In this document: positions 15,508 to 62,134 of the stretch, in pieces
Position numbering within the stretch: position 1 is the stretch's first letter
How the letters are laid out: every line of letters begins with the position of its first letter
Source of the DNA: an uncultured virus (IMG/VR IMGVR_UViG_2540341072_000002)
Lineage: Duplodnaviria; Heunggongvirae; Uroviricota; Caudoviricetes
Direction: 5' to 3' (one strand)
Length of the DNA stretch: 64,000 nucleotides
IMG/VR virus record: IMGVR_UViG_2540341072_000002
Notes under the pieces: model-generated
What the model was told of the DNA's origin: nothing
Seen by the model: the letters and a program-made list of their open reading frames with translations, nothing else
Databases searched by the model: none
Made by a program: the position numbers and the translations under genes

Positions 15508-15865
15508 TAAGTTGTACCTCCTGAATGATTTTCTGTAGATCTTGTTTCGTTCCACTAAGTTCAAACTTTAATAACAATGGTGTGTGGAACTTAGCTGAAA
15601 GCTTGTCTCCAGCTAAACCATAGTTATCACCCCAAACCTTGTTACCACTAACAGCAACTCCTCTAATTTTATTTTTATTCTTATTGATAAAACTCAAAGT
15701 CCTTTCAGGTACTTCCCCAAAGCCTATCGTATATGTAATATGTATGAATTCTTGATTGATGATCGTATCATCAGTTATTTCAATTGCCTCAACGTCAAAC
15801 TCTTGTTGCAGCGCTTTGACAAACCTTTTTACATTTCCTGTTTTACTCTCATATGTAATGATCAC
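15470..15865 (-). CDS. bnrdI: NrdI flavodoxin
   Basis: YESKTGNVKRF, SGNKVWG, FELSG. Confidence 0.93.
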   Translation of the reverse strand: MIITYESKTGNVKRFVKALQQEFDVEAIEITDDTIINQEFIHITYTIGFGEVPERTLSFINKNKNKIRGVAVSGNKVWGDNYGLAGDKLSAKFHTPLLLKFELSGTKQDLQKIIQEVQLIDKHNTKLDQAQ

Positions 15866-16218
15866 TAATCGTTATAAGCCCCTGTAATTAATTTTGTAGT
15901 CACTGTTTCAGCTTCATTTTCAGCGTAATTGAATGCTTCTGATATCTCACGATTAATGTCGCCCATTTCCATGTAGCCCTGTGCCATACTTTCATATAAG
16001 GAACTTTTCTTAACTGGAACGTAATCATCTAGATTCTTTTCTAATTCAACAAATTGATTTCCTTGTTGGTCAGTTGCAATAATCTCTCCTTTTAATACAG
16101 GGAAAGATTGCCCATCAGCTAAATGAATATGAGTGTTCTCAGTGGCTACTGTAAAGTTAATAATGTTCTTCTTTTTTACATATGGTTGAGTTGGATCAAT
16201 ACGTCTAGCTGCCCCCAT
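15865..16218 (-). CDS. yosL: YosL, protein with a MazE-like C-terminus
   Basis: ESMAQGYMEMGDINREIS...AENEAET resembles the B. subtilis MazE C-terminus. Confidence 0.75.
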   Translation of the reverse strand: MGAARRIDPTQPYVKKKNIINFTVATENTHIHLADGQSFPVLKGEIIATDQQGNQFVELEKNLDDYVPVKKSSLYESMAQGYMEMGDINREISEAFNYAENEAETVTTKLITGAYND

Positions 16219-53896: not shown

Positions 53897-54046
53897 AACG
53901 ACTAAGACTTTGGTCTTGGTCTCCTCCTTAGTAAACCATATGGTTTACATGACCATCTTACTACATTTAAACATGTATTTAAAGTGATTATTTTGTCTAT
54001 TTTTGTCGAAATGCGAATTTTTTCACAATTTTTTGAGATAAAAGAA

Positions 54047-54079
54047 AAATCCATTTAACCAAAATAGTCAAATGGATTT
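54047..54079. terminator. Hairpin downstream of yopR
   Basis: AAATCCATTT/AAATGGATTT stem. Confidence 0.6.
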
Positions 54080-54084
54080 CATAT

Positions 54085-55062
54085 TTAAATGGTCGTCTCT
54101 TTTAGACCTAGTTCTTCTGCGTAATATTTATTAACTTCTTCCTCATTAATATAATCTTGCATTGAATAAACTGCTCGATATTTGGATTTTACCCTTAAAT
54201 TAAAGTCATCTATAATCTGATACCTTACAGAGTTATCAATAACCCCTTTTTCTTTATAAAGCTGATATGCTCTATACAAATGACCAGATCTAACAATAGT
54301 ATTTGGTGTTAAAAAGTTAATTTTAAAGAACTCAGATATATCAGTAATTAGATTAGTTATGACAAATTTACTTGCTTGGCCGTCTCCTTTGTTGGACGTT
54401 CTTTTTGTTTTAACTACATAATCATTTTCAACTAAAAAGACTTCTTTTGTTTGGCCTTTTGCCTTCCCATTCTTTAATTTATATTTAGTTTCCTGAGCTG
54501 CATTTAAGGCAATAACAAGACATTCACTACTAACTTTTAGTTTTCGTTCACCGTGCTTTGAATCATAGAGGGTTAAAACGTTACCGTTAAGCATTGCATC
54601 CTCAACTTGCTTCTTCGTTAAACTTAGCAATTCAGAATGAGCTAAACCAGAAACTCCTTCAAAAAGTAGTCTTAACACAGCCTTAGATTGATAATTAACT
54701 AATTGATTTTCCATTTCCTCTAATTCACTATAAGTAATATATAATTTTTTGTCCCCGAGACATTCATAAAGCTCTTCTTCAGAAATAGTTCTTGCTAAAT
54801 TGGTTAATCCTTTACTTAACTTATATGAAATTGCCCAATCAATATACAATGACAATAATGCTAAGGTTCTTCGAACACTACCGATAGTGGTTTGATCGAA
54901 TGATCGTATAAGTTCTAAAATTTGCATTGATGTGAAATCATAAATGTCTTTATTATATAAAGTCTCAGTAATCTCTGCTTTTGCAAAAATAGGCCTCATC
55001 TGCATAACCATACCCTCAGATAAGGTATCTAAATATTTTTCCTTAATCTCACTATTGAACAT
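54085..55062 (-). CDS. yopR: Master repressor MrpR/SroF (catalytically degenerate tyrosine-recombinase fold)
   Basis: Integrase-like N-terminal domain, catalytic motifs eroded; Gly136 present (wild type, not the c2 allele). Confidence 0.85.
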   Translation of the reverse strand: MFNSEIKEKYLDTLSEGMVMQMRPIFAKAEITETLYNKDIYDFTSMQILELIRSFDQTTIGSVRRTLALLSLYIDWAISYKLSKGLTNLARTISEEELYECLGDKKLYITYSELEEMENQLVNYQSKAVLRLLFEGVSGLAHSELLSLTKKQVEDAMLNGNVLTLYDSKHGERKLKVSSECLVIALNAAQETKYKLKNGKAKGQTKEVFLVENDYVVKTKRTSNKGDGQASKFVITNLITDISEFFKINFLTPNTIVRSGHLYRAYQLYKEKGVIDNSVRYQIIDDFNLRVKSKYRAVYSMQDYINEEEVNKYYAEELGLKETTI

Positions 55063-55085
55063 TGCAACAAACAACTCCTAAGTAA

Positions 55086-56468
55086 TTACTCGTCTATTTT
55101 TAAATTATTGAAGAAATTCCATATCTTTTGTGGTGATTTAGCATTTCCATTCTTGTCTACTACACCTAATTCATCCCACAACTTATTTTTCTTACTAAAA
55201 TCTATAGAGCCTAAAACATCAGTAATCTTACTTTCCAACTCGTCTAGGCTTACCCCATCTAATTGCAATTTCTTAGCTAATCCCACATAACCATTAAAGA
55301 ACAAATAGTTGTTTACAAAACTTCTCTTCCGTTCTTTTGCTATATCACCTAAGAACTCATCTACATATTGTGTAGCTAAAGCATCAAAGAAAGATGTAAG
55401 GTATCTTGCAGTTTTTAAGATGTCTGCTTGAGTAGAAAAATCTTTTTTAGAATAGCTTCTTTCAATTGCCTTTTTGAAGTCAGAAAAAGTTATAAGTAAG
55501 TTTTGATTCTGATTTATCCAGTCTCCATTTGTCTTTATATAATCACCAATTATGCTATTGTCCTGAATAAACTTAACAATTTTATTTGAATAAACATTTT
55601 GACTCATCTCAGCCACTTTAGATTTTTTAACTGGGTTTATTGTGTTTTGTTGCCCAAAATGCTCTCTCGCCCTTTTTTGAGTGTAGTTATAGATGTCCAC
55701 TTTAAAGGTTTCTTCAAACAAATGATCTAACTCAGGATGTTGTCTTATAGCCATAGTAATGCCTATTAGCCGGTGATACCCGTCTAAAACGTCTAAAATG
55801 GTGTCTTCAGTCACTGTAAGAGACATAGTGTCGTCATCATATTTTAATTCTTCGCCACAACTTGCGCTTCCAACACGTGCATTAAACGTAAAAACTGATT
55901 TAATTAATTTCCCATCTAAGAACAGTTCCTTTATTTCTTCAACCGATTGTTTATTGAGCTGCGGTACAGGTATCTCAATATCTGAGCCCTCTAGTTTTTT
56001 CGTTTTGTTCGTTCTTTGAGCATTAGGATTATAGTGCAATAACTTATTTTCAAATAGCATAAACAACTCTTTAGCAGTGATGGGGAAGAAATAATTATCA
56101 TCCGAATACTTTACAACTTGTTTGAATGTATACGGAAATTTTATATCTTCCTCCACAGATCCTTCCCATAACGTTTCAATTTCTCTCATATCCGTTTCTG
56201 TGAAGTAATTTCGTGGATTAAACCTTTCACTTTCAAGAACTGAGTATAGGGACTTGGCTAAAAAGTACATATATTCTTTAGAAATTTCGACTTCTGGATT
56301 TTCTATATCATAAATTAATTTTTGTGTTGTCCCTGGAGTAATTTTATTTTTAGCCATCTCTAATTGAATATCGTTAATAAAAGATCTTATGTGTTTATTT
56401 TTCGAGATAGCATCTTTCATTTCTGAAAGCAGTTTCTCATTTGCAGACTGATCAAAGATCACTGTCAT
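55086..56468 (-). CDS. yopQ: DGQHR/DndB-like (ParB superfamily) protein, SroE
   Basis: YNPNAQR, VLDGYHRL, F.QQN motifs. Confidence 0.8.
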   Translation of the reverse strand: MTVIFDQSANEKLLSEMKDAISKNKHIRSFINDIQLEMAKNKITPGTTQKLIYDIENPEVEISKEYMYFLAKSLYSVLESERFNPRNYFTETDMREIETLWEGSVEEDIKFPYTFKQVVKYSDDNYFFPITAKELFMLFENKLLHYNPNAQRTNKTKKLEGSDIEIPVPQLNKQSVEEIKELFLDGKLIKSVFTFNARVGSASCGEELKYDDDTMSLTVTEDTILDVLDGYHRLIGITMAIRQHPELDHLFEETFKVDIYNYTQKRAREHFGQQNTINPVKKSKVAEMSQNVYSNKIVKFIQDNSIIGDYIKTNGDWINQNQNLLITFSDFKKAIERSYSKKDFSTQADILKTARYLTSFFDALATQYVDEFLGDIAKERKRSFVNNYLFFNGYVGLAKKLQLDGVSLDELESKITDVLGSIDFSKKNKLWDELGVVDKNGNAKSPQKIWNFFNNLKIDE

Positions 56469-56574
56469 ATAGCCTTTCACCTCATGTCATGTTGCTAAAT
56501 TTAAAGTTACCAAAGGCAATCTGGTTAATCAAGAAGAATTATCATTTGAACTGAGTAATATACCGAAAAAATGA

Positions 56575-57651
56575 TTATCGCTCATTTACATGCTTTATAA
56601 ACTTTTTTAATGTAACAAGATCAGCGTTTTCAAAAAAACTAATAAAATCCTCTTGGGTTGCTTCATATAGTGGATTTAAATCGATTTTTTCATCCATTGT
56701 TACACCAGCAGAGTTCGCTATGTTAATCTTTCTGCTCATATATCTCTCTGTTGTTAATGTGTTTTTATGATTTCCTTGTTCTTTTGCTGCAAGTAAATCG
56801 TGACCAGAATTCTCATAGACATAGTCAATTCCTACACCCTTAAATGAGTGTAAGACTAATTCTCTTTCAGGAGGTATTCCTAACCTTTTTTTCGACCTTT
56901 TTAAGGAGTGTCGTAAAGATTGTTCCGAAAGCCCCTGAAAAACCAATTCAGTTTCGCTGTCATCCTCTTCCTTCAGCTGCAACAATTCCTCATAAAATAC
57001 CTGGTTAATGCCTGTAGACACAACCTGAGATCCTTTATCAATAACTGTTACTATATAATGGCCTGTACTTTCATCAAGCTGTATGTCTTTCCATCTTACT
57101 CGCAAAATCGCACTTACACGAAAAGAAGTTCTGATGGCGAATTTAACAAACAGCTTTTTCATTAAAGGTTTCTGTCTTTCATTTATATACATATCCTGAG
57201 CGATTCTTTCGGCTTCTGTCTGGGTTGTTTTATCCCAGTTTTTAGTTACTGTTTTAAGCCTTTCGACAGTATTAAACACCGACAAGTCAATATAGTCCTT
57301 ATAATCATGCTCCAAATATGTATAGAGCATCTTCAAGGAGGTCATTTTTCTGTTAATACTATTATTAACTAATCCCTTTTCCTGAAGATACTTCACATAG
57401 TTGCTTAATTCGCTTTTACTTACAACTAAATCATCGGGAACTAAACTTTTGACATCTTTACCTTTAATCACACTAAAGAACTGCTTAATATCCCCTTCAT
57501 AATTCTTTCTGGTGTTCGACACCCTTCTAGTTGATGAAGGCATCATATAGTTAGAATTCCCTGAGCTACTTCTTATATCTTTATTGATTAAAAAGCCCTC
57601 GATATCATCGTAAACCGCATAATTTTTTAATTGTTTAATTTTATTTTGCAT
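56575..57651 (-). CDS. yopP: Tyrosine recombinase-family protein, SroD
   Basis: TSFRVSA, IDKG, LHSFK, GNH, TTERY. Confidence 0.85.
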   Translation of the reverse strand: MQNKIKQLKNYAVYDDIEGFLINKDIRSSSGNSNYMMPSSTRRVSNTRKNYEGDIKQFFSVIKGKDVKSLVPDDLVVSKSELSNYVKYLQEKGLVNNSINRKMTSLKMLYTYLEHDYKDYIDLSVFNTVERLKTVTKNWDKTTQTEAERIAQDMYINERQKPLMKKLFVKFAIRTSFRVSAILRVRWKDIQLDESTGHYIVTVIDKGSQVVSTGINQVFYEELLQLKEEDDSETELVFQGLSEQSLRHSLKRSKKRLGIPPERELVLHSFKGVGIDYVYENSGHDLLAAKEQGNHKNTLTTERYMSRKINIANSAGVTMDEKIDLNPLYEATQEDFISFFENADLVTLKKFIKHVNER

Positions 57652-57853
57652 TATCTTCTCCTCCTTTCTCATCTAATAACTCATCAATAGAGACATTCAA
57701 CACCAGAGCGATAAGCTTTATGGTTGTAACATCTGATTCATCTGGCATTTCAATGATTTTGTTTAATGTCTGCATATCAATCATTGTCTCCCTCGACAAT
57801 TCCTCTATTGTGATGCCACGTTTGACCATTAGCTGTTTTATTCGCTCTGACAT
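57641..57853 (-). CDS. yopO: XRE-family HTH protein, SroC
   Basis: HTH pattern. Confidence 0.82.
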   Translation of the reverse strand: MSERIKQLMVKRGITIEELSRETMIDMQTLNKIIEMPDESDVTTIKLIALVLNVSIDELLDEKGGEDNAK

Positions 57854-57900
57854 GTCAACCTCCTATTTTTATGTATACTATAGACTGCAGTGCGTATATG

Positions 57901-58221
57901 TTATGGTTGATAAATAAACTCTTCAAATTCAATTGCAATGTGTCGTTTTAAATTCTTCACAAAATGTATTAGGGATCTAAAATGCGGATTATTTTCAATG
58001 CTTCTTTTTAATCCATCTCCACCTAATAATACTCTATTTAGATCTTTTAATAATGCTGCTATCTCTATTTTTGCACCATGTAGATCATCTTCAGTTTTTG
58101 CATTAACAATCATTTTCCTAATGTTTAGTACACTCTCTATGTAAGTTTGTTTAGCATTTAATACAAAATCGGCATCAATATCTTTATGATTTGTAGACCT
58201 AAGTTCTACAACATGCATCAT
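57901..58221 (-). CDS. yopN: Lysogeny-promoting protein SroB
   Basis: Position downstream of the arbitrium locus; length. Confidence 0.7.
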
Positions 58222-58421
58222 TAATCCTCCTTGTATTCGCTTAGCAATTTCATGTATCCTTTAGTTAGTTGTTTTCGAACATTTTCATTCTTCATTATTT
58301 TTGACTTTTCAATGCTTTTTTCATGAAAAAACAAATCATTTTTAACTAAGCTTTCAACTTTCTTTTGGTAAATGGTTTTATGCATTGTCATACTGTTTTT
58401 TAAGTAACTAATTGCGGACAT
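58221..58421 (-). CDS. yopM: Small basic protein SroA
   Basis: AGGAGG RBS; first gene of the operon. Confidence 0.7.
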
Positions 58422-58434
58422 ACCACCAACCTCC

Positions 58435-58465
58435 TATATACATATTTTTTATCTTTTGCATCTAT
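58435..58465. promoter_or_regulatory. SPbeta repeated element core upstream of yopM
   Basis: TATATACATATTTTTTATCTTTTG. Confidence 0.6.
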
Positions 58466-58598
58466 AGCAATTGTAATGCATTACAAAAGGGAAGTAAAGA
58501 TTTTTTTAACGACAAATAGCACATTCTACGCAATTTTTTTGCGAATGTGCTGCTTTGTAATGCATTTCATTTAATTAGGGTGTATGTATTTGAAGTTG

Positions 58599-58635
58599 AT
58601 CACTAGATGTTATTAAAACCTAATATTTAAGTGAT
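58599..58635. promoter_or_regulatory. AimR operator
   Basis: ATCACT-N25-AGTGAT inverted repeat. Confidence 0.88.
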
Positions 58636-58650
58636 GGCCTTAAAACTACA

Positions 58651-58683
58651 AAAGACGCTTAGCTCAAAAGAGCCAAACGTCTT
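58651..58683 (-). terminator. Intrinsic terminator downstream of aimP
   Basis: AAGACG..GCTC/GAGC..CGTCTT stem with T tail on minus strand. Confidence 0.75.
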
Positions 58684-58712
58684 CCTTTTCTCTGTTTAAT
58701 TTAATTAAATAA

Positions 58713-58741
58713 ATAATAATACTAATAACTTTATGTGTCAA
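58713..58741 (-). promoter_or_regulatory. sigmaA-type promoter just after the aimP stop
   Basis: TTGACA-N17-TATTAT. Confidence 0.7.
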
Positions 58742-58747
58742 TGGATT

Positions 58748-58873
58748 TTATGCTCCACGTGGCATTCCAGCAACCTCATAATCACCTGAAGCTTGTTGGA
58801 TTGAAGAATCTGCACTTATGTAAGAAGTGCCTAGTGCGCCCAAGATAACTAAAGCCATAATAAGTTTTTTCAT
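58748..58873 (-). CDS. aimP: Arbitrium pre-pro-peptide (41 aa; mature GMPRGA)
   Basis: Read manually: MKKLIMALVILGALGTSYISADSSIQQASGDYEVAGMPRGA; AAAGGAGGTG RBS. Confidence 0.95.
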   Translation of the reverse strand: MKKLIMALVILGALGTSYISADSSIQQASGDYEVAGMPRGA

Positions 58874-58886
58874 TGTCTCACCTCCT

Positions 58887-60047
58887 TTAAAGTAAAAGTA
58901 ATTCTAAAAGTTTTTGATTTTCACCCATCTTTTGCAGTTCTAACAGTGGCAGCCTAATAAGGAATTTGTCATTAGACTTTTTAAAATACTCGATTGAAGA
59001 ATAGAAACATGCTTTATTTTGTTCGAGTCTTCCTTTCAAATAATAATGCATTGCAAGCTCATTATCGTTGTGAACTAAAAGATCTAGTTTATCCAAAACT
59101 TCTTTTGCTTTGGAATTTTCATTAAAGTTGATAAAACAATGAGCTTGCTCCTGCAAATCCATAATTGAATCAGATTCAAAATTAATCCACTTATTTTCTT
59201 TGCGCCATACATTATTTAAGAAGCACAAAGCCTGCTGGAAAATCATGTTGTAATTTTCATTTTGAACAGAAATGCTTAGCCCTTTTAAAAAGTTTTCTTG
59301 AGCCAATTCATAATTCGAAAATAATAGAGAGTTGCCAATAGTTAAGTAGCTGAAAACCTGAAATCTCAGGATATTTGTACTTTCCAATGCCTTTTTAGAG
59401 TACTCTCTGCACTCCTCTAATGAATTTTCATTTAACTTTATATTAGACATTAGAACATGAACTCTTGTTTGATATGTATTTCTAATGTACATGTTCTCAG
59501 AAATCTCACTTAGGTCAATTTGTTTTATAAGTTGGGCCATCGGAGAAAAGTTACCAGTGCTTAAATAATGATAAAGCAGCAAGAGTCTTGAGAAAGAATT
59601 CATTTCAGGTGTTTTTATATTTAATTTGCCGAGTCTTTTCACTGCCTCAAATTCAGTAATAACACTGTTAGACAGTTCTCTATGTATTTTATACACTTTT
59701 CCATATTCTTTACTTTTCATATTGCTGCAAGAAATCATTGAATCTATTAAAACATCTTCTATTTCAAAAAACATATTTGCATCAGCATACTCCAATGCAC
59801 TTCTTGCTGCCTTTGTCTTAACATCTAGGTTTAAACAGTAATCTTTCATTAATTCATATTCACGGTCTGGATACTGACTCTTAACAATGTTGACTATTGA
59901 AGAAAATTCATTAAATGTTTTCCCATCATGGTTTAAGAAGTCATAAAGAGGATTGGGGTTTTTAAGGCCAGCTACTGTTGCCCATTTATTCATTAAAGAG
60001 TTGTCATTTTCCAAGTCTTTCTTCATAGCTATCCTTATTAACTCCAT
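58887..60047 (-). CDS. aimR: Arbitrium peptide receptor (RRNPP family, HTH plus TPR)
   Basis: 386-aa helical-repeat protein directly upstream of a secreted peptide gene. Confidence 0.93.
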   Translation of the reverse strand: MELIRIAMKKDLENDNSLMNKWATVAGLKNPNPLYDFLNHDGKTFNEFSSIVNIVKSQYPDREYELMKDYCLNLDVKTKAARSALEYADANMFFEIEDVLIDSMISCSNMKSKEYGKVYKIHRELSNSVITEFEAVKRLGKLNIKTPEMNSFSRLLLLYHYLSTGNFSPMAQLIKQIDLSEISENMYIRNTYQTRVHVLMSNIKLNENSLEECREYSKKALESTNILRFQVFSYLTIGNSLLFSNYELAQENFLKGLSISVQNENYNMIFQQALCFLNNVWRKENKWINFESDSIMDLQEQAHCFINFNENSKAKEVLDKLDLLVHNDNELAMHYYLKGRLEQNKACFYSSIEYFKKSNDKFLIRLPLLELQKMGENQKLLELLLL

Positions 60048-60090
60048 TATTTCCCCTCATTTCTTTTTGTTGTCTTTATTGGTTAACTTA

Positions 60091-60147
60091 ATAATACTAT
60101 AGATCACATTACGAGTCAATTATTTTATACATATTTTTTGTATTTGT
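60091..60147 (-). promoter_or_regulatory. aimR promoter with adjacent repeated-element core
   Basis: TTGACT-N17-TATTAT (60119-60091); TATACATATTTTTTGTATTTG at 60126-60146. Confidence 0.7.
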
Positions 60148-60176
60148 AATCTCTTTAAAATTCCAATTTTAACTAG

Positions 60177-60205
60177 ACACAATGAGGACTAAACCTCATT
60201 GTGTT
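60177..60205. terminator. Hairpin downstream of yopJ
   Basis: ACACAATGAGG/CCTCATTGTGT stem. Confidence 0.65.
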
Positions 60206-60223
60206 CTTCTAAAGCAAAAGGTC

Positions 60224-60640
60224 CTACTTAAGGCTATAATACACCTCTTCCGCAATATCCTTTGCAAACCTAGCGAAAATTTCTCTATCAAAACTTCTTA
60301 AGCATTTAGCTAAGGACAGGATATTCTGCACATGGTCAAGTGTATTAGTCAAATCTAATGCCGTTACCAAAGAAAGCAACATGTCTTTGTAGTTCATATC
60401 TCCGGCAACGCCTTTATAAACCACATGTTGCCGTTCATCGAAAACTGGGGCATTCTCAGATAGGTGTATATCAAATTTCGCAGCGATATCCTCCCGCTCT
60501 ATAGATATCAACTCTTTAATTAACTCTACTAATTGCTGTTCACTCAAATTAGAATAACTTGCTCTCAATAAATTAAAGGAATCAACACCTATTTCACCAT
60601 GGAGGTCTTCCCATCTAAAATATAAAAATGTGTTTTTCAT
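60224..60640 (-). CDS. yopJ: Hypothetical protein
   Basis: ORF track. Confidence 0.7.
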   Translation of the reverse strand: MKNTFLYFRWEDLHGEIGVDSFNLLRASYSNLSEQQLVELIKELISIEREDIAAKFDIHLSENAPVFDERQHVVYKGVAGDMNYKDMLLSLVTALDLTNTLDHVQNILSLAKCLRSFDREIFARFAKDIAEEVYYSLK

Positions 60641-60641
60641 T

Positions 60642-61175
60642 TTAAAACTCCCCTAAGAATACTTTGTACATTTTCCCGTTATGATCTTTTGCCTCAAGAT
60701 AAACCCTATTGCATTTTTTCACTTGTTTAGTTTCCTTTTCGTTTAAAAATTTTATTATATTAATAGCGATGATTTGCTTAGAAGGCAAATTAATATTAAA
60801 TAACTTATCCCTGTAATAGCCAAACTCAGCAAACTCTTCAGTTGTTGCTTTATCATCAGGGGTAACAGAAACAATTAAATTTGTGTTTTTGTAAAAGCAA
60901 AATTTAATTTCCCGTAGAACCTTGGGGATCTCAGCGCCATTGTATATTTCAATCTGGGAGTGTATTTCTATTTGCTTTGCTTCATCTTTAGATGGCATAA
61001 CATTAGTTCCCCAACCATCATTATCGGTTTTAAAATATATTTCAAAGTCAACTATATAAAATTTAATTTGCCCAAAGTGCTTTAATATGTGAGTAAGAAT
61101 TAAAGTGACTATAACTCCCAATAAAGCCCCAATGATACCTTCAAAATTAGAAATTATTTCTCCTATATTATTCAA
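60642..61175 (-). CDS. yopI: Membrane-anchored hypothetical protein
   Basis: N-terminal TM segment. Confidence 0.7.
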   Translation of the reverse strand: MNNIGEIISNFEGIIGALLGVIVTLILTHILKHFGQIKFYIVDFEIYFKTDNDGWGTNVMPSKDEAKQIEIHSQIEIYNGAEIPKVLREIKFCFYKNTNLIVSVTPDDKATTEEFAEFGYYRDKLFNINLPSKQIIAINIIKFLNEKETKQVKKCNRVYLEAKDHNGKMYKVFLGEF

Positions 61176-61201
61176 ATTTGAATATTTCCTTTCTGTATGT
61201 C

Positions 61202-61738
61202 TTATAAGATGTGATCTATTGACTCATGTAATAAATGCTTGTTTTTTGTTAAATATCCCCTCGCCCAAGGCTGTATGTTGTATGCAAAATAAGAACCACG
61301 ATTACTAATATTAGAACTTCTATAAATAATCTTTAAATGTTCTAATTCCTGAGCTGTCCCATCAGTTATACTTAATTCCACAGACCGAACATCGTCAAAG
61401 ATGTAGGGGCTTAATATTTGTTTTTCCCTCCTATTAAGATTTCGGAGTCTTTCTTTTTGCAGTTTATAACTGTATTTTTGGTCAATTTTATTTTTTATCC
61501 CCAAACTTATCCACCAAATAAAGTGAGATAAAATGAAACTGGTTGATGCTAAGAAAACAAGCCCTAGGTAAAGTTTATAGCTATTTATAGCATCTTTTAT
61601 ACCAAGTGTTTTTCCTAATCCAACATTCCCTAACCAAAGCCCAATTCCAGAAAAAACTGCTAGTCCCAATAAATATTTAGGGCTCAGCTTAATAATGTCA
61701 CCTACCCATGAAGGACTTTTTTCATTTTGGTCACTCAT
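61202..61738 (-). CDS. yopH: Superinfection-exclusion B (SieB)-like membrane protein
   Basis: 2 TM followed by L.NL...EK.IL...L...II. Confidence 0.6.
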
Positions 61739-61776
61739 ATAATCAACCACCTCATATTTATAGAATAGTGAAGATG

Positions 61777-61908
61777 TTATAGCCGCTTCCATTCAACATA
61801 CTCGAACCGCTTCTGATACAAGTCTTCAAGTATAGCAGCCCATTCAATCCAACCTTCTGCAACAATGTTTTTCTTTTCTCCATTCTCAATCCACTCTATC
61901 CAATACAC
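61777..61908 (-). CDS. yopG: 43-aa Trp-rich protein
   Basis: Read manually; AGGAG RBS, GTG start. Confidence 0.6.
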
Positions 61909-61918
61909 CTGAACACTC

Positions 61919-62134
61919 CTAACGCTTTACGACTTGAATTTCCCTTACCTCACATTGCACATTACACTTCGTTTTAAGCTCACTTGCTACCTCGATGACT
62001 TCTAACATATTATGTATTTTAGAAGCTTCATGGAGGTCGCTAGATGTCAAATAACCACTCTCATCTAATTTAAATGCTTTAAAGTATTCCTTGTTTTCAA
62101 ACTGCAGTACATAAAAATAATCAATCAAAGGCAT
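61919..62134 (-). CDS. yopF: Hypothetical protein
   Basis: ORF track. Confidence 0.7.
   Translation of the reverse strand: MPLIDYFYVLQFENKEYFKAFKLDESGYLTSSDLHEASKIHNMLEVIEVASELKTKCNVQCEVREIQVVKR

What the first reader, a model, noticed from the sequence alone, without database searches (positions are those of the whole stretch)
58599..60119. Arbitrium peptide communication system (aimR-aimP-aimX)
A TPR/HTH receptor gene is followed by a 41-codon gene missed by the ORF track. It encodes a signal peptide and the C-terminal hexapeptide GMPRGA, and is followed by an ATCACT-N25-AGTGAT operator. Established: this is the SPbeta phage quorum-sensing system controlling lysis versus lysogeny. It is the most remarkable functional system in the window but is already described.
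Basis: partly seen in the sequence, partly recalled or inferred. Interest (0 to 1): 0.78.

Follow-up and report, generated by a model that had tools for sequence, protein, structure and literature searches.

The report
SPbeta phage arbitrium signalling locus
This is the well-studied peptide signalling switch of the Bacillus phage SPbeta that helps it choose between killing its host and lying dormant; the one open part, its small aimX RNA, carries a conserved cut site for a host RNA-cutting enzyme that offers a simple test of how it works.

Summary
Confirmed and already known. Window 54000-62000 is 100% identical to phage SPbeta. aimR (yopK) equals crystallised AimR; aimP (yopL) ends in GMPRGA; the 37-bp operator is the published EMSA and crystal probe. 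Two corrections: AimR is an antiterminator acting on the terminator at 58685-58650, and SPbeta has no AimX protein; its aimX is an RNA of unknown mechanism, partly outside the given range. Added here: a promoter just after aimP whose predicted start matches the published sRNA ncr1915 (58706-58648); a conserved 3' hairpin; and one UACAUA, the host MazF cut site, at 58588-58583. That hexamer lies within 200 nt after aimP in 28 of 28 distinct related loci (antisense 0 of 28; background 47 of 244 windows), in 2 of 2 further close loci, but 1 of 18 distant ones. I infer a MazF-aimX feedback loop; untested, and possibly already in papers I could not read. A word search of earlier scan findings returned none.

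The parts
60129..60143 (-). repeated element upstream of aimR; inferred SPBRE, the binding site of the master repressor MrpR/SroF
   Evidence: matches 58440-58454 within 2 mismatches; ChAP-seq peaks at aimR and yopM in PMC10516654; motif letters not seen in the paper text, so the identification is inferred
60091..60119 (-). sigma-A-type promoter of aimR (TTGACT-17-TATTAT)
   Evidence: consensus scan, 10 of 12; not tested
58887..60047 (-). aimR (yopK), 386-aa HTH-TPR peptide receptor and antiterminator
58748..58873 (-). aimP (yopL), 41-aa pre-peptide; mature GMPRGA encoded at 58751-58768
   Evidence: read pile over the start region 58862-58892 in Ribo-seq run X24
58713..58741 (-). promoter of the aimX RNA (TTGACA-17-TATTAT), upstream of the terminator
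   Evidence: 11 of 12 consensus; kept with diverged spacers in 14 of 14 loci with AimR 57-100% identical; start 58706 equals the 5' end of ncr1915
58648..58706 (-). ncr1915, 59-nt RNA: the terminated form of the aimX transcript (identification inferred here)
   Evidence: PMC2965217 table row 2208755-2208813 minus the window offset 2150107
58650..58685 (-). intrinsic terminator that AimR antiterminates
   Evidence: 16-pair stem, annotated stem-loop, PMC10769878 section 7, protected fragment 58652-58686 in run X24
58599..58635 (.). AimR operator ATCACT-N25-AGTGAT
   Evidence: same 37-mer in PMC6458997 and PMC6536502
58583..58588 (-). UACAUA, cut site of the host MazF (EndoA) RNase, in the read-through part of the aimX RNA
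   Evidence: only 6-mer shared by 8 of 8 SPbeta-type segments; motif specificity from PMC11780869 and 10.64898/2026.08.06.743204; cleavage at this site not shown
58518..58551 (-). hairpin H2, inferred 3' end or pause site of the aimX RNA
   Evidence: 7-pair core stem in 18 of 18 loci, G-C to A-U in 6, A-U to G-U in 3, spacer of variable length; 87% of cells paired
58470..58498 (-). predicted promoter of the yopM-yopR (sroA-F) operon, overlapped by a 16-bp palindrome at 58471-58486
   Evidence: TTTAC[AT]-17-TA[AC]AAT in 14 of 14 ORF-less aimX loci aligned; palindrome annotated in NC_001884
58440..58454 (-). inferred SPBRE (MrpR/SroF site) in front of yopM
54085..58421 (-). yopMNOPQR = sroABCDEF lysogeny operon, the downstream module (context)

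Best explanation
This is the arbitrium module of prophage SPbeta. Shown in print: pre-AimP is secreted, cut to GMPRGA, re-imported, and binds the AimR TPR groove, releasing AimR from the 37-bp operator; peptide-free AimR on the operator lets RNA polymerase read through the terminator just upstream, giving the pro-lytic aimX RNA. Inferred here from sequence plus one published 5' end: in SPbeta that RNA starts at its own promoter (58706), is 59 nt when terminated (ncr1915) and about 190 nt when read through to hairpin H2, and encodes no protein. Inferred and untested (about 0.45): the single UACAUA in the read-through part lets host MazF destroy the aimX RNA, so that aimX and MazF oppose each other and sharpen the switch; the RNA's own output most likely lowers the sroA-F lysogeny operon whose promoter begins 19 nt after H2 (about 0.4). 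The confidence figure is for the identity and the published steps.
For: 100% identity over 8001 nt to AF020713 and NC_001884; identity to crystallised AimR; footprint, EMSA, crystal and peptide-release data on this operator; antitermination and terminator suppressor mutants in SPbeta; aimX reporter needs AimR and falls with GMPRGA; no AimX homology in 58401-58760, the only genome hits being yosL (E 9e-6) and weak ones; promoter conservation and ncr1915; UACAUA in 28 of 28 distinct loci, top 6-mer in 12 of 12 chosen representatives, against 47 of 244 other windows and 2 of 12 aimR upstream windows; 2 of 2 new loci with AimR at least 35% identical, 1 of 18 more distant ones; SPbeta infection of a mazEF deletion becomes insensitive to GMPRGA; the peptide is reported to activate the yopM-R operon (second-hand in PMC10516654).
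Against: For the inferred steps only. In a mazEF deletion SPbeta induction still answered to peptide and lysogen numbers did not fall, so MazF cannot be the whole output. SPbeta DNA is generally rich in UACAUA (0.71 against 0.25 per kb per strand) and L151 and L152 also carry it upstream of aimR. The loci are related, so the products of probabilities overstate. In 10 of 18 loci examined the site lies before the terminator, not after it, so its role may concern aimP mRNA decay. Predicted accessibility of the site varies (unpaired probability 0.1-0.97). The yopM-yopP part of the lysogeny operon also holds 3 UACAUA sites. A search of one end-mapping supplement found no row for these positions. 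The 3' end at H2 is not mapped; its U tail is weak.
Confidence: 0.93

Rival explanations
1. The aimX RNA is a decoy: it ties up MazF as a preferred substrate and so protects lytic mRNAs (a speculation printed in PMC10769878).
For: Conserved UACAUA placed in the AimR-dependent part in 8 of 8 SPbeta-type loci and absent upstream of the terminator there; discussion of PMC10769878.
Against: One site per RNA is a weak sink for a catalytic RNase (inference); SPbeta already has the protein inhibitor YosL; peptide still acts on induction without MazEF.
Confidence: 0.15
2. Only the act of read-through matters: polymerase running to or pausing at H2 occludes the sroA promoter in cis; the RNA and its MazF site are incidental.
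For: H2 ends 18-19 nt before the -35 box in 10 of 14 ORF-less loci and 29 nt in 4; weak U tail; aimR suppressors map to the terminator, yopN and yopR.
Against: Does not explain the conserved hexamer; one preprint judges trans action likely for SPbeta-like phages, without data seen by me.
Confidence: 0.25
3. The aimX RNA is a base-pairing sRNA acting in trans on an unknown mRNA.
For: Original model as restated; defined 5' end and 3' hairpin.
Against: The segment between operator and H2 shares only one 6-mer across 8 loci and varies from 47 to 71 nt, leaving little conserved seed; no Rfam match. No target search was run.
Confidence: 0.12
4. AimR is a classical activator of a promoter downstream of the operator, or aimX encodes a small protein as in phi3T.
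For: Early papers and a 2026 review still describe activation; ORFs of 23-25 codons exist in the interval.
Against: Antitermination shown for SPbeta AimR; no AimX homology; the 25-codon ORF after aimP is lost or frameshifted in close relatives and ends inside the terminator; no Ribo-seq depth in 58446-58633, though coverage was thin.
Confidence: 0.04

Closest known systems
SPbeta arbitrium locus (yopK/aimR, yopL/aimP; AF020713, NC_001884; PDB 6hp3, 6hp5, 6hp7, 5zw5, 6jg8)
   Same: It is this locus: 100% DNA identity over 8 kb, identical receptor, peptide and operator.
   Different: Nothing in 54000-62000.
phi3T arbitrium system (AimR-SAIRGA-AimX protein)
   Same: Gene order, terminator family, operator at the same distance from the terminator, hairpin H2, downstream sro operon, a UACAUA after aimP.
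   Different: AimR 40% identical; other peptide and operator boxes; aimX is a 51-aa MazE mimic read from the aimP promoter; no internal promoter found by the scan; UACAUA lies before the terminator.
Katmira/Goe11-type chimeric systems (GIVRGA)
   Same: Same operator and same aimX region.
   Different: AimR 68% identical, other peptide.
Extended arbitrium systems (aimR-aimP-aimX antirepressor-aimC-aimL)
   Same: AimR/AimP signalling logic.
   Different: AimX is a protein antirepressor of an opposite-strand HTH repressor; no such gene follows aimP here; distant AimR loci mostly lack the MazF site (1 of 18; their clade was not assigned).

Membership tests
Arbitrium system, SPbeta type (clade 2) | AimR: N-terminal HTH plus TPR receptor | tested here: met
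   PF22871 E 3.8e-109; 386 of 386 identical to PDB AimR
Arbitrium system, SPbeta type (clade 2) | Adjacent downstream aimP with signal peptide and C-terminal hexapeptide | tested here: met
   41 aa, 13 nt after aimR, hydrophobic core, GMPRGA; hydropathy only, no signal-peptide predictor run
Arbitrium system, SPbeta type (clade 2) | 6-bp inverted repeats 25 bp apart downstream of aimP | tested here: met
   same sequence
Arbitrium system, SPbeta type (clade 2) | Terminator between aimP and the operator | tested here: met
Arbitrium system, SPbeta type (clade 2) | Downstream sroA-F (yopM-R) operon | tested here: met
   (MrpR domains on yopR)
Arbitrium system, SPbeta type (clade 2) | Peptide blocks AimR-DNA binding and shifts the decision to lysogeny | not testable with these tools
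   published for this identical sequence
phi3T-type system with AimX protein | 51-aa MazE-like AimX ORF after the operator | tested here: not met
   tblastn of phi3T AimX against 58401-58760: best E 1.5; ORF list
Extended arbitrium (aimC/aimL) | Opposite-strand HTH repressor directly after aimX | tested here: not met
   next genes yopM-R are co-directional
MazF (EndoA) substrate | UACAUA in the transcript | tested here: met
   58588-58583 on the transcribed strand
MazF (EndoA) substrate | MazF-dependent cleavage in vivo | not testable with these tools
   no row for these positions in the one supplement searched; no usable RNA reads

The most novel reading that the evidence does not exclude
The ORF-less aimX RNA of SPbeta is a separately promoted, AimR-antiterminated RNA (ncr1915 extended to hairpin H2) whose one conserved word is the host MazF cut site, and a MazF site right after aimP is a general trait of SPbeta-type arbitrium loci. 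MazF would then destroy (or be tied up by) the lysis signal itself, making a double-negative toggle that explains how aimX works without a protein.
Probability: 0.35. Interest if true: 0.6.

Novelty: already known. Interest (0 to 1): 0.27.

Why it matters
The system itself is a textbook case and adds nothing new. What remains open in print is how SPbeta's aimX works as an RNA (stated as unknown in a November 2025 preprint). The boundaries proposed here (start 58706, terminator, operator, MazF site, H2) and the conserved hexamer reduce that question to a one-base mutant and a cis-versus-trans test in a standard laboratory strain.

Tried and rejected
Further AimR operators in the window: three 2-mismatch hits are at chance level; exact boxes with other spacers lie elsewhere in the genome; not followed. 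Ribosome-site sequestration: the read-through RNA of SPbeta is predicted to pair over the yopM Shine-Dalgarno, but that pairing is absent from the predicted folds of L023 and L027, so I dropped it as a general mechanism. The long hairpin between 58469-58487 and 58554-58572 follows from two copies of one DNA palindrome and is not kept in divergent loci. The hexamer as an inverted SPBRE core: best match 9 of 15, and it stays constant where the neighbouring repressor box changes. Rfam: no match at E up to 1. Reads: 3 of 4 runs gave no read, X24 gave 175, so neither the 5' end nor the H2 end could be mapped. One search used a structure one column out of register; one search is the corrected count, and its alignment misplaces three short-loop hairpins. 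Supplement of PMC11780869: no row for the positions or gene names tried. No fold or complex prediction was run: solved structures exist.

Full report
Identity. Megablast of window 54000-62000 gave 100.0% identity over 8001 nt to phage SPbeta (SPBc2; AF020713, NC_001884), 2 of 24 matching records being complete matches. The window lies at G000:C1:2150108-2214107 in a 4,215,606-base genome. The record annotates yopK, yopL ('lysogeny pheromone peptide AimP'), a stem-loop, a palindrome and yopM-yopR in this order.

Observation. aimR is 58887-60047 (-), 386 aa, matches Pfam AimR at E 3.8e-109 and is identical to five PDB sequences of SPbeta AimR. aimP is 58748-58873 (-), 41 aa, with a hydrophobic core and C-terminal GMPRGA. 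The operator is at 58599-58635, the single exact match in the window and the single 25-nt-spacer match in the genome. The same 37-mer is the footprinted, crystallised and EMSA-tested operator (PMC6458997, PMC6536502), and GMPRGA but not SAIRGA releases AimR from it.

Corrections. PMC10769878 section 7 shows that SPbeta AimR prevents termination at a terminator upstream of its site, and that 3 of 8 evolved aimR suppressors carry a base change in that terminator. That terminator is 58685-58650. SPbeta has no AimX ORF: stated in 10.1101/2023.04.27.537455 and confirmed here, since phi3T AimX finds nothing in 58401-58760 (best E 1.5) and in the genome finds yosL (E 9e-6; window 15865-16218) and two weak hits. 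10.1101/2025.11.23.689978 says that SPbeta aimX seems to work as an RNA by an unknown mechanism.

Anatomy of the aimX interval. I gathered 145 loci (L001 left out as the window's own record); 44 encode an AimR relative and collapse to 28 distinct downstream sequences. (a) A promoter TTGACA-17-TATTAT follows the aimP stop at 58741-58713 (11 of 12). It is present 4-8 nt after the stop in 14 of 28 loci, exactly those with AimR 57-100% identical, with the two boxes and the 17-nt spacing kept and the spacer diverged; one more locus (L006) has a promoter further on, 13 have none. PMC2965217 lists a 59-nt RNA, ncr1915, at 2208755-2208813 between yopM and yopL, mapped to NC_000964.3. With the window offset this is 58706-58648: it starts 7 nt after the -10 box and ends at the terminator. 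I read it as the terminated aimX leader. A full-text search for 'ncr1915' returned 6 papers, 5 listed, of which only that one concerns Bacillus. A published SPbeta aimX reporter uses an amplified 'aimX promoter' whose limits I could not see, so the promoter may be known to those authors. (b) Hairpin H2 at 58551-58518: a 7-pair core in 18 of 18 loci examined (of the 28; 6 near-identical SPbeta variants and 4 loci without the sro operon were left out), with G-C to A-U in 6 and A-U to G-U in 3; on 13 of them 87% of cells pair against 81% in shuffles. Six of the 18 were found with a pattern that holds the 3' arm. In phi3T the hairpin follows the AimX ORF, so it likely marks the 3' end of the aimX transcript; this is inferred. 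(c) A conserved promoter for yopM at 58498-58470 in 14 of 14 ORF-less loci and a repeated element at 58440-58454 and 60129-60143 that I infer to be the MrpR/SroF site, because its copies fall at aimR, yopM, yorE and yorM, four of the ten ChAP-seq peaks.

The MazF site. Between operator and H2 the 8 SPbeta-type loci compared share a single 6-mer, UACAUA, in segments of 47-71 nt. I noticed UACAU as the older MazF motif (recalled, then seen); the full hexamer proved to be the strict cut site of B. subtilis MazF/EndoA (PMC11780869; 10.64898/2026.08.06.743204). In the other 10 of the 18 loci it lies 5-12 nt before the terminator and not between terminator and H2. Over all 28 distinct loci it lies within 200 nt after the aimP stop in 28 of 28 on the transcribed strand and 0 of 28 on the other; shuffle expectation is 0.07-0.18 per locus. 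In 12 representatives that I chose it is the commonest 6-mer (12 of 12; next 9), while 47 of 244 other same-strand windows and 2 of 12 aimR upstream windows hold it. As a second set I took 58 loci from Pfam searches of 91 and 401 genomes, dropped 10 duplicates and 28 without an aimP-like ORF, and tested 20: 2 of 2 with AimR at least 35% identical have the site, 1 of 18 more distant ones do (2.6 expected for the 20). The trait thus follows the SPbeta-like clade, the one known to engage MazEF. The loci are kin, so these are not independent trials, and SPbeta DNA is enriched for the motif.

Reads. Of four raw-read runs three gave no read; Ribo-seq run X24 gave 175 from about 6% of the run, piled on the terminator hairpin (58652-58686) and the aimP start, with lesser depth at the aimR and yopM starts and none in 58446-58633. 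This shows RNA over the terminator and fits, weakly, an untranslated aimX.

Mechanism. Published: secretion, processing and re-import of the peptide, binding to AimR, loss of operator binding, loss of read-through, lysogeny. Inferred: the read-through RNA runs 58706 to about 58515; MazF cuts it at 58588, so that active MazF removes the lysis signal (about 0.45); its output most likely lowers sroA-F expression (about 0.4), which would also keep MazF off, as SroA/SroB free MazF by binding MazE. Against: without MazEF, SPbeta induction still answers to peptide and lysogen numbers are unchanged, although infection becomes peptide-insensitive. Rivals are a decoy RNA (printed as speculation), pure cis interference, and a trans sRNA.

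What I saw of each paper. Passages from term searches: PMC8612738, PMC6536502, PMC6458997, PMC10516654, PMC9232636, PMC13389391, PMC2965217, PMC11780869 (plus one supplement search), and preprints 10.1101/2023.04.27.537455, 2021.09.20.460909, 2021.11.22.469490, 2025.11.23.689978, 2025.11.27.690993, 10.64898/2026.08.06.743204. PMC10769878: passages and sections 7 and 14 whole. Not seen: Erez 2017, Cui 2022, Brady 2023, Guler 2024 final version, PMC13220667 beyond its listing; statements from them are second-hand. In the passages returned by searches and reads 42, 58 and 61 I saw no mention of a MazF site in the aimX region, but the unseen papers, above all Guler 2024, which mapped MazF sites on phage transcripts, may hold it.

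Verdict. Already known; observation confirmed; interest 0.27, owed to the testable lead on the aimX RNA rather than to the system itself.

Noticed in passing
   Followed up: partly
window 58471-58486 and 58556-58569: A 16-bp perfect palindrome over the spacer and -10 box of the yopM promoter and a one-mismatch copy inside the aimX RNA; one more copy elsewhere in the genome. Likely a site for an operon-encoded regulator such as YopO; kept only in close relatives.
   Followed up: partly
window 15865-16218: yosL, the MazE-like MazF inhibitor, is the only AimX-like protein of the prophage.
   Followed up: yes
window 58817-58822: A second UACAUA lies inside the aimP coding sequence in most close SPbeta variants but not in L024 or divergent loci.
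   Followed up: partly
L005, L031, L078, L105, between H2 and the sroA -35 box: The distance is 29 nt against 18-19 nt in other loci, about one helical turn more, which could mean that the conserved word after H2 is a protein site phased with the promoter.
   Followed up: no
L027, L028, L104 (aimP to operator): These loci keep the GMPRGA peptide but have AimR about 73% identical and a different, imperfect operator: same signal, different DNA box.
   Followed up: no
L012 yopN, L024 yopM: Truncated yopN (53 aa) and yopM (41 aa) in two close SPbeta relatives.
   Followed up: no
G203, G262, G216, G095, G339, G385: Tandem runs of three to five AimR-family genes about 1.1-1.2 kb apart in other Bacillales; those tested had no aimP-like ORF by my filter.
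   Followed up: no
L158, L194 (after the AimR-family gene): Pre-peptides that repeat their putative mature peptide two or three times.
   Followed up: no
window 61202-61792: yopH carries a SieB superinfection-exclusion domain (E 4e-44), three genes upstream of aimR.
   Followed up: no
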